A stretch of DNA of 63,476 nt, counting the filler, from Octopus bimaculoides (lineage: Eukaryota): the NCBI RefSeq assembly GCF_001194135.2. It is 7 parts of 7 records of this genome, joined end to end, with 100 filler letters (N's around TTAATTAATTAA, not from the genome) between each part and the next. Parts side by side here need not be neighbours in the genome. Positions count along the whole stretch, not along the records: positions 1 to 22,303 come from NC_068999.1; positions 22,404 to 36,484 come from NC_068982.1; positions 36,585 to 53,587 come from NC_068993.1; positions 53,688 to 55,895 come from NC_068985.1; positions 55,996 to 59,188 come from NC_068983.1; positions 59,289 to 62,011 come from NW_026336265.1; positions 62,112 to 63,476 come from NW_026388909.1. One strand, given 5' to 3'. A program made the position numbers and the translations under genes. The notes below the pieces were generated by a model that was given only the letters and a program-made list of their open reading frames with translations, was not told the origin of the DNA and searched no databases. Shown one piece after another: positions 9,949 to 63,321 of the stretch. Position 1 is the first letter of the stretch, and the number at the start of each line of letters is the position of its first letter.

Positions 9949-9985
9949 TCTTTGACGTTTCGAGCTACGCTCTTCAACAGAAAGA
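9949..9985 (-). ncRNA. Minimal type I hammerhead-like motif 1 (A6U core variant)
   Basis: TCTTT-CTGTTGA-A-GAGC-GTA-GCTC-GAAA-CG-TC-AAAGA: stem I 5 bp, stem II 4 bp, palindromic ACGU stem III, GUC triplet. Lies in a ~9865-10080 repeat. Confidence 0.6.
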
Positions 9986-10128
9986 ATACGGAGACAAGGA
10001 GAAAAACACGGAGAAAAAAAATTGAATAGTGTTCAGTCAACGGTCAATCATAATAATGGCCGATCATAACAATGGCTGACACATATATGAGAGAGAGAGA
10101 GAGAGAGAAAGAAAGAAAGAAAGAGATA

Positions 10129-10520
10129 GTGCAGGCGTGGTTGTCTGATTAAGGAACTTGCTTCCCGACCATGTCATCTTGGGTTCAGTCCGACTGCGTG
10201 GCACTTTGTGCAAGTTTCTTCTGAAGCCCAATTGCCTTGTGAGTGGTTCTGGTAGACGGAAACTAAAAGAAGCCCGTCGTATATATGCATGTTATATGAT
10301 CGTGTTTGTGTTTGTCGCCTCCCCCACGTCCTTTGACAACCGGTGTTGCTTTGTTCGTGTACCTGTAAACTAGCGGTTCAATTAAAAAGACCGATAGAAC
10401 GAGTGCCGAGCTTAAGCAAAATAAGTACTTGTGTCGCTTCTTCCGACTAAAATCCTTGAAGGCGGTGCCCCAGCATGGCCGCAGTCCAGTAGTCCAGTGA
10501 CTGAAACAAGTAAACAAAGA
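10129..10520 (+). mobile_element. SINE family B, diverged full-length copy
   Basis: Same head, body and GGCGGTGCCCCAGCATGGCCGCAG...ACTGAAACAAGTAA tail. Confidence 0.85.
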
Positions 10521-12843
10521 TATATAAATATATATACATTTAGACAAATTTCTTGATCATAAGAGGAAAATTATATCTCTGACGAAATACTTTGTCAAAA
10601 ATTTAATTGAATTTACACACACACACACACACACTCACGTAAGAGAAAGAAATTTCGTTTCTCGTTCTTGGGATCATGCAAATACGAAAAGCATTCCTTC
10701 GACTCTAGTCTGAATTATTTTCGCTTAAAAACGAAATAATAATAATAATAAAATAAACGAAACTAATTTAAGGATAAGCCTAACTGCTGCTTTGTTATGA
10801 CAAGTATTTATTAGGAAAGCTCTTGATTGAGTCGCTTGAAAATCCGGTTCGCCTTTTACGGCATAGAAATGCGAAACCGTACTATTTCACGTACTATTTC
10901 CTTCTCTCTATGTTAACAGCTGGGGCTTTTTTTTTTTTTAATGTATGTAAACATTATTAGTATTTGGGTGACCTTGTAGAATAACGTTGTTTTCACTTTC
11001 GCAGGAAGCAGTTTTGGGGGGTTCCCATGGCCACAGCTGTCGAGCTTAAAATTAGTTAAAGATAAATATCGCTTTCATTTTTGCTGGGGTTTTCCCCAGC
11101 CTTTTTGCCATTTTGTTTACCCAGCTACGACAACGCTTGTGTCACCTCNNNNNNNNNNNNNNNNNNNNNNNNNNNNNNNNNNNNNNNNNNNNNNNNNNNN
11201 NNNNNNNNNNNNNNNNNNNNNNNNNNNNNNNNNNNNNNNNNNNNNNNNNNNNNNNNNNNNNNNNNNNNNNNNNNNNNNNNNNNNNNNNNNNNNNNNNNNN
11301 NNNNNNNNNNNNNNNNNNNNNNNNNNNNNNNNNNNNNNNNNNNNNNNNNNNNNNNNNNNNNNNNNNNNNNNNNNNNNNNNNNNNNNNNNNNNNNNNNNNN
11401 NNNNNNNNNNNNNNNNNNNNNNNNNNNNNNNNNNNNNNNNNNNNNNNNNNNNNNNNNNNNNNNNNNNNNNNNNNNNNNNNNNNNNNNNNNNNNNNNNNNN
11501 NNNNNNNNNNNNNNNNNNNNNNNNNNNNNNNNNNNNNNNNNNNNNNNNNNNNNNNNNNNNNNNNNNNNNNNNNNNNNNNNNNNNNNNNNNNNNNNNNNNN
11601 NNNNNNNNNNNNNNNNNNNNNNNNNNNNNNNNNNNNNNNNNNNNNNNNNNNNNNNNNNNNNNNNNNNNNNNNNNNNNNNNNNNNNNNNNNNNNNNNNNNN
11701 NNNNNNNNNNNNNNNNNNNNNNNNNNNNNNNNNNNNNNNNNNNNNNNNNNNNNNNNNNNNNNNNNNNNNNNNNNNNNNNNNNNNNNNNNNNNNNNNNNNN
11801 NNNNNNNNNNNNNNNNNNNNNNNNNNNNNNNNNNNNNNNNNNNNNNNNNNNNNNNNNNNNNNNNNNNNNNNNNNNNNNNNNNNNNNNNNNNNNNNNNNNN
11901 NNNNNNNNNNNNNNNNNNNNNNNNNNNNNNNNNNNNNNNNNNNNNNNNNNNNNNNNNNNNNNNNNNNNNNTGAATTTAGATAATCTGGAAAGTAAGGGTG
12001 ATAACTCCGAGTGTATTCTCGTTTTATTAGACCTCCTCAGCGAAGGTTAGCTATAGCTGTTCTTATGTAAAGGAGTAATGATAGAATCGCAAAGCCGTTC
12101 AATATAATAGACGTAAAATGAAAACAAAATAGACAAGGGGCTACAAACTCTTCATGTACGACGGGCCGCTGAACCGCAGGGAATGGAACTAAAGAATAAA
12201 ATAATGATGATGCGGTGAAATTTGTAGAAACTTTGGCTGTTATTTCTAGCAAGTCGAGCTACTATGTAGAGTCCTCGTCGCCGGTTCGATACAGTTTTTG
12301 TTTTTGTTTTATATTTTGGAATTATATTAGACACAATACAAATATAATTCCAAGATTTAATGGAACTCCCGCGTTAGGGGAATAGATGCTACATAATTTG
12401 GCATGGACACGAGGGACACACAGACACATTTTATATATATATGCATACCATTCCCTTGAGGGTTTTTTAGCTGATATTCCAAATATAATTGTTTTTTATA
12501 CAATCGTTGAGAAAATAATATAGAGCTAATGAAAGCTATAGATAAGATGAATCTATTAAGGCTGAATTATTGTTTAGTGTGTTTGTATTCTTTCTGTCTT
12601 TATACGTGTACATCGAATTTTCTGTTTGTCTCTTTGTATGTATATATATATGCATCTGTCTGTATGTATGTGTACATGTATGTATGTATGTATGCATGTA
12701 TCTTTCTGTATGTATGTATGTTTCTTTTTTTTTCCCTTGTGTGTGCCATTGAACTGCGGCGCCGTGAAGAATTCAGTCGAACGAATCAACACCAACTCTT
12801 TATCTTTTTAAAAAAGCTGGTACTTGTTCTGTCGTGGGCCCGT

Positions 12844-13100
12844 GGGCATATGGCTTAGTGGTTAAGAGCGCGGGCTACTAACCCCAAGATTCCGAGTTCG
12901 ATTCCAAGCAGTGACCTGAACACTAATAATAATAATTATTATTATTATAATAACAACATCGAAAAATACCTTAGGAATGAGAATCCAGGCTCGAAATTTC
13001 CCCCAAGACACCTGATGAAGGCTGGAGGGTATATCAGCCGAAACGCTGTTAACAACAAACAAGATGAGGACAAATATCCGTCGAATGTGAACGCGACGCA
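12844..13100 (+). mobile_element. tRNA-headed element with (AAT)n spacer and hammerhead-like tail
   Basis: GGGCATATGGCTTAGTGGTTAAG (A box), GAGTTCGATTCC (B box), (AAT/ATT)n, second B-box-like GGCTCGAAATTTCC, then CTGATGA-A-GGCTG...CAGCC-GAAAC. Confidence 0.75.
13007..13050 (+). ncRNA. Hammerhead-like motif 2 (core and stem II intact; stems III/I decayed)
   Basis: GACAC-CTGATGA-A-GGCTG-GAGGGTATAT-CAGCC-GAAA-CGCTGTT. No correctly placed UH, so this copy is probably inactive. Confidence 0.55.
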
Positions 13101-13195
13101 TCCATTTCCAAGTATATATAGAGTTCTATGATCATGTATGGATGCGTGTGTGTATATGTATGTAGGCGAAGGTAAATAATACACACATCCAGTGT

Positions 13196-61362: not shown

Positions 61363-61408
61363 GTGATACTGATGAAAGAACAATAACTCCTGAAACATGG
61401 ATATACAC
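61363..61408 (+). ncRNA. Decayed minimal hammerhead-like motif 4
   Basis: GTGATA-CTGATGA-A-AGAA-CAATAAC-TCCT-GAAA-CATG-GA-TATACAC. One substitution from an ACAUGU palindrome (U16.1 to G); stem I 6 bp with a bulge; one stem II mismatch. Confidence 0.5.
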
Positions 61409-61688
61409 CCATTATCTATTTTTTTTATTTTTATCTCAATCACACTGTTTACATAAAGGCACTCATATATGAAACCTAACTCTCAGTGCAGGCTGTGAAT
61501 TCCATAAGAAATCTACTTGCATACCCCTGTTCCAGGGGTATGCAAGTAGAGAATAACTGTTGCTACCCAAGGACAAAAATCATGTTACACAGTGTAATAC
61601 ACCAAATACTATTTGTGGTAATTAGACATTTACAAAATAAAGGTTGGCAATGATTTCTTCAAAGTTTTGGACTATTAGTCTGTTAGAT

Positions 61689-61985
61689 CAGGGGTTTTCA
61701 AACTTTTTGACTTGCGGACCCCTTTATATTTCAGGCTTTACCTTAGGGACCCCCTTATAAACGCTTATGAAATTTATACATAAATATTTGCTTAAAATAA
61801 CATATATTTTTACATTTATTTATTTAACAGTATTTAACAAATAGGTTTATTGTCAATTAAAAGATTTCGATTAAAAAACATATATAAAATCAAATTGCCC
61901 ATAAAAAGTATTTGCTGTCTACGGACCCCCTGTCTTGTCCTTGCGGACCCCCTGTGGTCCGCGGACCACAGTTTGAAAACCCCTG
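61689..61985. mobile_element. hAT-family MITE, 297 bp
   Basis: Perfect 15-bp TIR CAGGGGTTTTCAAAC / GTTTGAAAACCCCTG; 8-bp TSD TGTTAGAT / TGTTAGAG (7/8). Confidence 0.9.
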
Positions 61986-63275
61986 TGTTAGAGGAACTCA
62001 CAACAAAACAANNNNNNNNNNNNNNNNNNNNNNNNNNNNNNNNNNNNNNNNNNNNTTAATTAATTAANNNNNNNNNNNNNNNNNNNNNNNNNNNNNNNNN
62101 NNNNNNNNNNNCTTCAGCCGCAAACACTGCTAGTCCAAAGATTACATCACAAAAGAAAAAGTACACCCATTATAATAGGTTTATCACATCCCTTTAAAAA
62201 GGTATCTCTGCATAAAAGTTCATTGAATTTCAAAAATCTGCCCATGCTGTACCACAATTCAGCACAGAGTGAATGTTAAATAGATTGGATTGAGTTTATA
62301 TTTAACTAGCGTGATCAAAGGTAAAAAATAAAGTAAAAGATAAAAAAATAAAACATAAAATATGAAAGTAATAGAAGTCAAACCGATAGTAATAAAAGTA
62401 AAAATAAGGATAATAAAGTTAGATACATATATAAATAAGATTTAGCAAAATTGGAATAAAGTAACAAAAGAAATAAAAACATAAAGTAGAATAAGAGATA
62501 AAGAAATAAAATTGTAGTGGTCATAGATAATTTCTTAGCTAGACCACTCGTTGAAATATAGATTAAGGTTGTAATTTGATATTGTTGTGATGAGTGGTCA
62601 GTTTACCCAAACACACCACTAAAAATTCCTAGCTTTATAAACTTAGGTATTACATGGGTACATACACTTACTTAGAAGTCATATCATATGTATATGTGTG
62701 TATACACACACACTCATACAGATCCACCTACTAACATGCTCAAGCCTGTACCCGTATGCCTCATTATGCAAAATTCTAAATATATGAATATACACATACA
62801 TCTCCACACATCTATAGTTACACCCTAGTAACCATATCCATACACTCAACATCCACATATCCTTAAGCACACGTCCAGATATAGATATATCTCCATGTAT
62901 GGTATCAGCATACATGCACTCACGTCCATCTATGTATACACACATACAATACACCTTATAAGCGTATATCTTGATTTTGAGTACATAACAGTTATATTTA
63001 ATATTTAATATACTATTCTCAATAGATTGAGTTACATATATTCTTAAAAAATTTTTTTTTTTTTAATTTTTTATATCTGTGTTATATATATATATATATA
63101 TATATGTTCCGTTTACATATTTGTTTTGCAAGATTTTTGATGTGAAATCGTCTGTTAAAACAGATGTTGTACTTGGGGATGGTCATATTGCCAGTTTAGC
63201 CAATAAAAACACACGCACTGTATATTTGGTGTTAATTTGCTTCAGCTTTATATTACATTAATCTTAATCTTATTT

Positions 63276-63321
63276 CGGCCAGAGTTCTTTCGTCACACTT
63301 CTGTGACCTCATCAGTGGTCC
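63276..63321 (-). ncRNA. Minimal type I hammerhead-like motif 5 (catalytic core intact)
   Basis: GGACCA-CTGATGA-G-GTCAC-AGAAGT-GTGAC-GAAA-GAAC-TC-TGGCC: stem II 5 bp, 1-bp stem III with tetraloop, CUC triplet, stem I 4/5 bp. Predicted cut between 63282 and 63281. Confidence 0.65.

What the first reader, a model, noticed from the sequence alone, without database searches (positions are those of the whole stretch)
9949..63321. Five different minimal hammerheads in 63 kb, four with an extra base between A9 and stem II
The motifs at 9949, 13007, 26625, 61363 and 63276 share no stem sequence, so they come from independent repeat families, yet all have type I topology and a tiny stem III (ACGU, ACG-, AUCCGGAU, ACAUG-, AGAACU). 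Four carry an inserted A or G after CUGANGA. A single insertion at this position is established as compatible with activity in the chrysanthemum chlorotic mottle viroid (+) hammerhead. This density would imply a very large, diverse ribozyme complement able to cut host pre-mRNA or make small/circular RNAs, possibly by trans-dimerisation between copies.
Basis: partly seen in the sequence, partly recalled or inferred. Interest (0 to 1): 0.8.

Follow-up and report, generated by a model that had tools for sequence, protein, structure and literature searches.

The report
Hammerhead relics; one family fixes A6U
The five motifs are real but mostly damaged copies of a known kind of self-cutting RNA fold that likely rode in with Penelope-type jumping genes; the one new thing is that a very abundant repeat family carries U instead of the near-universal A at core position 6 in two organisms, which is predicted to slow or stop cutting.

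Summary
All five motifs are in the sequence, but none passes a strict hammerhead descriptor. S1, S3 and S5 beat shuffles individually (E≤0.01); S2 and S4 are decayed (E≈0.24). The extra base is clear in three (S1, S2, S5), ambiguous in S4 and absent in S3. Type I topology, an extra base at 9/10.1, a palindromic mini-stem III, dimer action and many families per genome are the published signature of Penelope-like-element minimal hammerheads (PMC4209133). S3 and S4 look like canonical retrozyme-type hammerheads. The five cannot dimerise with each other. The addition: public runs laid on S1 show a very high-copy, (TA)n-flanked family in which U6 is fixed (no other letter at ≥10% in 4 of 4 runs, two organisms), while H17 varies only among allowed letters and loop II changes length. 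RNA reads show no ends at the cut site. Verdict: known class, with one family-level core variant that my searches did not find in print; activity untested.

The parts
9949..9985 (-). S1: minimal type I hammerhead fold with A6U core, A insert, palindromic ACGU, predicted cut 3' of C17 at 9954
   Evidence: E 0.010; U6 fixed in the family, H17 varies C/U/A, loop II 3 or 4 nt
9864..10080 (-). S1 host element: short high-copy non-coding repeat; many copies end at (TA)n, some are head-to-tail; likely non-autonomous and Penelope-dependent (inferred)
   Evidence: 8,662 contigs in X2, 106 in X14, 3,272 and 2,579 RNA reads; loose ends and go-back joints across (TA)n
13007..13052 (+). S2: decayed minimal hammerhead (core intact, A insert, 6-bp stem II, U16.1 lost, stem I 2 bp)
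   Evidence: E 0.24
12851..12905 (+). tRNA-like head upstream of S2: A box 12851-12861 (regex), B-box-like 12896-12905 (by eye); suggests a SINE-like carrier
   Evidence: not called by ARAGORN or Rfam
26625..26669 (+). S3: canonical-size type I hammerhead with U4C, no insert, 8-nt palindrome; the double-hammerhead is the predicted homodimer minimum; distal helix extends to about 26617-26677
   Evidence: -31.1 kcal/mol; E 0.000
61362..61407 (+). S4: decayed hammerhead, probably canonical type; U16.1 lost, stem II mismatched, insert ambiguous
   Evidence: E 0.24
63277..63321 (-). S5: minimal hammerhead with intact core, G insert, 6-bp stem II, imperfect palindrome, bulged stem I
   Evidence: E 0.000

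Best explanation
The five motifs are solo, mostly mutated hammerhead folds from unrelated repeats, likely left by Penelope-like retroelements and their non-autonomous derivatives, and most are predicted not to cut where they now sit. S1, S2 and S5 have the minimal pseudo-LTR architecture; S3 and probably S4 have the canonical retrozyme or SINE-type one. Shown: the folds, their defects, the absence of same-family partner hammerheads in the window, and for S1 a high-copy family with U6 fixed, (TA)n ends and head-to-tail joints. Inferred mechanism: in tandem parent copies, two identical hammerheads pair through the palindromic 15.1-16.1 strand and swap stem I strands, cutting the multimeric transcript into units that the element's reverse transcriptase and endonuclease re-insert. 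The S1 family most likely spread with a slow or dead ribozyme, because A6 changes cripple cleavage in Mg2+ and cleavage is dispensable for insertion in the one Penelope element tested in vitro; its fold would persist as part of the terminal repeat that the borrowed protein recognises.
For: Match to the published consensus U-rich NNN CUGANGAH G..C GAAAN palindrome NU H (PMC4209133 text and Fig. S3). Significance of S1, S3 and S5. S3 homodimer minimum equals the double-hammerhead. S1 family abundance, (TA)n ends and go-back joints; (TA)n bias is described for Penelope-like elements (PMC8557442 passages). A6 changes give low activity (PMC3088659 section 8; PMC7151607; CUGA-turn mutants low, PMC9901934). 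Catalytic mutants do not affect insertion in vitro for anole PAc (PMC11167929). No ends at the S1 cut site in two RNA runs.
Against: No reverse transcriptase or GIY-YIG remnant in 300 of 585 ORF pieces scanned with Pfam, including all 220 higher-complexity pieces within 4.5 kb of a site, so the Penelope link rests on architecture alone. Family membership of S2-S5 was not tested outside the window. In the S1 family 0 of 33 constrained hammerhead positions vary at ≥10% in DNA versus 11 of 78 in the 3' flank (Fisher p 0.016; 0.03 and 0.05 per run), and H17 varies only among allowed letters, which hints at retained function; but the 5' flank in X2 is equally invariant (2 of 95, p 0.55). PAc, which does cleave with its protein, also showed no ends in RNA-seq, so missing ends are weak evidence.
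Confidence: 0.72

Rival explanations
1. The S1 family carries a working natural core variant (CUGUUGA) that would cut as a dimer only with help, from the element's protein or from Mn2+, and selection keeps it.
For: U6 fixed in 4 of 4 runs and two organisms; H17 is C, U or A but no G row; loop II length changes while the stems do not; similarity to organism B stops at 9983-9986, the 5' edge of stem I; constraint p about 0.02-0.05. Precedents: A6C is rescued by Mn2+; the PAc hammerhead needs protein.
Against: CUGA-turn mutants are low in deep mutagenesis; the family is young in organism A (6,738 of 8,662 contigs ≥95% alike), so invariance may reflect recent amplification; the double-hammerhead (-9.5) is far above the mispaired homodimer (-22.7) for the 37-nt motif; no RNA ends.
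Confidence: 0.2
2. One reading: a large active complement of such ribozymes cuts host pre-mRNA or releases small or circular RNAs from dispersed copies by trans-dimerisation.
For: S1 reads are abundant in RNA (3,272 of 12.9 million records in X22), so same-family partners exist in the cell; a few go-back joints occur in RNA; S3 is a well-formed dimer-type hammerhead; retrozyme circles are abundant in other animals (PMC7229834).
Against: Four of five copies have core or 15.1-16.1 changes; cross-family stem I pairing ≤2 bp; minimal hammerheads cut poorly even as cis dimers; no ends at the S1 site, and a go-back joint is also present in DNA; no host gene was identified in the window.
Confidence: 0.1
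3. Some motifs, S2 and S4 in particular, are chance look-alikes.
For: E about 0.24 each; the reversed control scores higher once; the loosest descriptor shows no excess.
Against: S2 has a perfect core, a 6-bp stem II and the consensus insert, sits behind a tRNA-like head, and its 3' tail recurs at 50306-50348; S1, S3 and S5 are individually significant.
Confidence: 0.12

Closest known systems
Minimal hammerheads (min-HHR) of metazoan Penelope-like elements (Cervera and de la Pena 2014, PMC4209133; Lunse et al., title seen only in a reference list)
   Same: Type I, short stem I, unpaired base between 9 and 10.1, G10.1-C11.1, palindromic 15.1-16.1 strand, U-rich 5' flank, dispersed solo copies, many unrelated families per genome (S1, S2, S5).
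   Different: The S1 family has U at position 6, whereas all 56 Fig. S3 examples have A6 (their descriptor required the catalytic boxes). No Penelope ORF was found beside any site.
Canonical type I hammerheads of non-LTR retrozymes and newt or Schistosoma-type repeats (PMC7229834; preprint 10.64898/2026.07.22.740005)
   Same: 6-bp helix I, 4-bp helix II with a 6-nt A-rich loop, short palindromic helix III, predicted dimer (S3; S4 decayed).
   Different: Solo copies, no tandem array in the window; S3 has U4C and A10.1-U11.1; circles not tested.
Natural core variants: A6C of phage Bcep176 and viroid U4C (PMC3088659, PMC7151607)
   Same: A single change in the CUGA turn with the rest of the fold kept; low activity expected in Mg2+.
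   Different: A6U rather than A6C, in an animal repeat family seen in thousands of distinct contigs rather than at one phage locus; no assay.
SINE-like hammerhead retroposons of Schistosoma (review PMC6765202, passages)
   Same: A promoter-like head followed by a hammerhead (S2).
   Different: S2 has the minimal, insert-bearing form; linkage of head and hammerhead across copies was not tested.

Membership tests
Type I hammerhead ribozyme | Three-way junction open at stem I | tested here: met
   All five parse as type I; stems are full in S1 and S3, partial in S5, damaged in S2 and S4
Type I hammerhead ribozyme | Core C3 U4 G5 A6 N7 G8 A9 / G12 A13 A14, A15.1-U16.1, H17 | tested here: not met
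   Fully met only by S5 (1 of 5); S1 A6U, S3 U4C, S2 U16.1C, S4 U16.1G
Type I hammerhead ribozyme | Site-specific self-cleavage | not testable with these tools
   Indirect only: no pile of read ends at the S1 site in two unstranded cDNA runs
Type I hammerhead ribozyme | Match to an Rfam hammerhead model | tested here: not met
   None among 150 of 234 hits shown; none at E≤10 around S2, S3, S5
Penelope-type minimal hammerhead | Unpaired base between 9 and 10.1 and G10.1-C11.1 | tested here: met
   S1, S2, S5; S3 lacks it, S4 is ambiguous
Penelope-type minimal hammerhead | Palindromic 15.1-16.1 strand allowing a homodimer | tested here: inconclusive
   Exact in S1 and S3; imperfect in S2, S4 and S5; dimer fold favoured only for S3
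Penelope-like element | RT plus GIY-YIG ORF next to the pseudo-LTR hammerhead | tested here: not met
   No such Pfam hit in 300 of 585 ORF pieces; N gaps lie next to S1 and S3; most published min-HHRs are also solo
Penelope-like element (non-autonomous derivative) | Dispersed high-copy repeat with tandem units and microsatellite insertion bias | tested here: met
   S1 only; S2-S5 not tested
Non-LTR retrozyme | Tandem 150-450-bp units each with a complete hammerhead | tested here: inconclusive
   No tandem copy of any site in the window; a few S1-family joints go back 185 bases across (TA)n
Non-LTR retrozyme | Abundant unit-length circular RNA | not testable with these tools
   Go-back joints cannot tell circles from genomic tandems, and one occurs in DNA
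tRNA-derived SINE (S2 carrier) | Internal A and B boxes in a tRNA-like head | tested here: inconclusive
   A box by regex, B box by eye, 34 nt apart; ARAGORN and Rfam negative

The most novel reading that the evidence does not exclude
The S1 family is a very high-copy animal retroelement whose hammerhead works with U at core position 6, cutting as a protein-assisted or Mn2+-dependent dimer. It would be a natural, selected A6U ribozyme, and a whole class of such motifs would be invisible to CUGANGA descriptors.
Probability: 0.2. Interest if true: 0.65.

Novelty: new variant of a known kind. Interest (0 to 1): 0.36.

Why it matters
The part worth keeping is S1. A core letter that mutagenesis says matters is replaced across a very abundant family shared by two organisms. 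If it cuts, it extends the allowed hammerhead core and shows that standard searches undercount these motifs. If it does not, it is a natural demonstration that a Penelope-type non-autonomous element can reach very high copy number without self-cleavage, which bears on the open question of what these ribozymes do for the element.

Tried and rejected
No whole genome is held, so there is no genome-wide count; the density rests on one window chosen for it. Exact-pattern scans of metagenome contigs for the S1 and S2 motifs found nothing; viral and prokaryote collections were not scanned. Earlier findings by sequence and by place: nothing. Idea that U6 creates an inhibitory rod fold: rejected, the A6 version mispairs as strongly (-8.7 vs -8.0 kcal/mol). 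Extra candidates at 7466, 12204, 960 and 44663 score at chance level. Cross-family dimers: rejected. Idea that the 115-nt structured repeat beside S3 and S5 is a twister or other known ribozyme: no Rfam support. RNA-only changes at 9956 and 9962 (13-21% of reads, under 1% in X2 DNA) are not read as editing; they likely come from one truncated, expressed locus with a loose end at 9966. Summed contig depth (2-3 million in X2) is not used as a copy number. Runs X18-X20 (share ≤0.07) were ignored. Searches for the variant in print: full-text CUGUUGA/CTGTTGA with hammerhead (20 of 33 listed, none relevant by title or abstract), A6U/A6C/U4C, variant-core searches, and supplements of PMC4209133, PMC3088659 and PMC8557442 gave no A6U family. 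Lunse et al. could not be read and may hold it; figure-only supplements are not searchable.
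Full report
Setting. The window is microsatellite-rich DNA with 5,926 N in 28 runs, about 23-41% GC, full of dispersed repeats. No whole genome is held. The S2 region is held by DNA runs of organism A and, less fully, by runs of organisms B and C. That it is an animal, and that the repeat style recalls octopus assemblies, is my recollection and comes from no call.

Observation. All five motifs are at the stated places. Only S5 keeps every core letter. The extra base after A9 is clear in S1 (A), S2 (A) and S5 (G). 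S3 pairs A10.1-U11.1 directly, and S4 can be read either way.

Chance. A strict descriptor finds 0 sites. Allowing one core change finds S1, S3 and S5 against 0.46 per shuffled window (0 of 150). The loosest version finds 7 against 7.1. A scored scan written after I had seen the sites gives expected counts per shuffled window of 0.000, 0.000, 0.010, 0.24 and 0.24 for S3, S5, S1, S2 and S4; the reversed window had one site scoring above S2 and S4. So three sites are secure on their own and two need family evidence. Rfam does not pick them up.

What is known. Cervera and de la Pena 2014 (PMC4209133; main text parts 1-3 of 4 and supplement parts 1-2 of 3 read) describe this architecture: minimal type I hammerheads in the terminal repeats of Penelope-like elements and scattered as solo copies, with a conserved base between 9 and 10.1, G10.1-C11.1, a palindromic stem III, dimer action, low activity in vitro, and several unrelated families with thousands of copies per genome (about 9,000 in Xenopus). 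In their Fig. S3, 54 of 56 examples show the insert and 56 of 56 show A6. S3, with 6-bp and 4-bp helices, matches the canonical retrozyme type instead (PMC7229834, parts 2-3 of 6); solo monomers are common (preprint 10.64898/2026.07.22.740005, part 1 of 5 and passages). Lunse et al. was seen only as a title.

Context in the window. No reverse transcriptase or GIY-YIG remnant was found in 300 of 585 ORF pieces, including all 220 higher-complexity pieces within 4.5 kb of a site. No site has a second hammerhead copy in the window. S2 lies about 100 bases behind a tRNA-like head, and its 3' tail recurs at 50306-50348 starting just past the predicted cut (one case). In a double hammerhead, stem I forms between the two partners, so partners must share stem I; cross-pairing among the five is at most 2 bp. 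For S3 the double-hammerhead is the predicted homodimer minimum (-31.1 kcal/mol). For S1 and S5 it is not.

The S1 family. I could lay reads on one site and chose S1, with 4 of the 24 runs listed (80% likeness, differences listed from 10%). 8,662 contigs of DNA run X2 (organism A), 106 of X14 (organism B), and 3,272 and 2,579 raw RNA reads (X22 and X24, one study, about 6% of each run) fit it. Position 9977 (U6) has no listed alternative in any run although it is well covered, so U6 is the family letter and not a private mutation. In the DNA runs the only changes listed inside the 37-nt fold are H17 (U in about 35% of X2 depth, A in 11% of X14, no G) and a one-base longer loop II (59% of X14 depth). 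The 3' flank has 11 variable positions in 78 against 0 in 33 constrained hammerhead positions (p 0.016), but the 5' flank in X2 has only 2 in 95 (p 0.55). Similarity to organism B stops at 9983-9986, the 5' edge of stem I. Loose ends on both sides run into (TA)n, and a few reads and contigs join the end of one unit to the start of the next. The RNA shows equal counts on both strands, follows the DNA profile, and has no place where many molecules begin or end.

Mechanism. Shown: a short, very abundant, (TA)n-flanked, sometimes tandem repeat with a minimal hammerhead fold and a fixed A6U. Inferred: it is a non-autonomous terminal-repeat derivative moved by a Penelope-type protein; (TA)n bias and tandem insertions are described for such elements (PMC8557442 passages). 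Position 6 changes lower activity (PMC3088659 section 8). A6C in one ribozyme is over 10,000-fold slower in Mg2+ than in Mn2+ (PMC7151607 passages), and CUGA-turn mutants are low throughout (PMC9901934 passages). In anole PAc the hammerhead cuts only with protein, catalytic mutants still insert, and RNA-seq shows no ends at the site (PMC11167929 passages). I therefore think it most likely that the S1 ribozyme is slow or dead and that the family spread without it, with about a one in five chance that it is an assisted working variant.

Novelty. A family-fixed A6U was not found in my searches and 'a6u' met no earlier finding of this scan, but the most relevant large survey was not readable and descriptor-based surveys would miss it by design. 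S2-S5 remain untested at family level, and no cleavage was measured.

Noticed in passing
window 26712-26830 (+), 33322-33439 (-), 33470-33587 (+), 56629-56745 (-), 63344-63463 (+): A 115-nt structured repeat in five copies: 24 predicted pairs, 4 with compensatory changes (covariation 1/500 shuffles, only 5 related sequences), possibly a pseudoknot (by eye), no Rfam match, no further copies by covariance model. One copy starts about 40 bases 3' of S3 on the same strand, another about 25 bases from S5 on the opposite strand. The pairing may be more than chance and is unexplained.
   Followed up: partly
window 12851-13100: tRNA-like head, (TAA)n, then the S2 hammerhead: a candidate polymerase III-driven, SINE-like carrier of a minimal hammerhead; a 5'-truncated tail copy lies at 50306-50348 (-).
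   Followed up: partly
window 44550-44780 (-) and 50907-51245 (-): Helix-turn-helix remnants (HTH_23 E 7e-06; Mos1-type HTH_48 E 1.2e-06), probably decayed DNA transposases.
   Followed up: no
window 4842-5111 (+): Short reading frame with a YLPYPVFSHGRLYVAFSRV stretch that recalls the end of a Helitron PIF1-type helicase (recalled; no Pfam hit).
   Followed up: no
window 9864-10085, runs X22 and X24: An expressed truncated S1 variant: 268 and 363 reads leave the element at 9966 into one common sequence; RNA-only changes at 9956 and 9962 likely come from it.
   Followed up: no
window 1959-2106, 29203-29439, 32509-33869, 35446-36423, 38180-38385, 57327-57528; and 3646-4035, 10129-10530, 13274-13562, 60470-60851: Two further abundant dispersed repeat families, about 150-230 and about 300 bases long, probably SINE-like.
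   Followed up: no
window 22304-22403, 36485-36584, 53588-53687, 55896-55995, 59189-59288, 62012-62111: Six blocks of 44 N, 12 bases, 44 N; the one I read looks like an assembly spacer, so adjacency across them is not secure.
   Followed up: no
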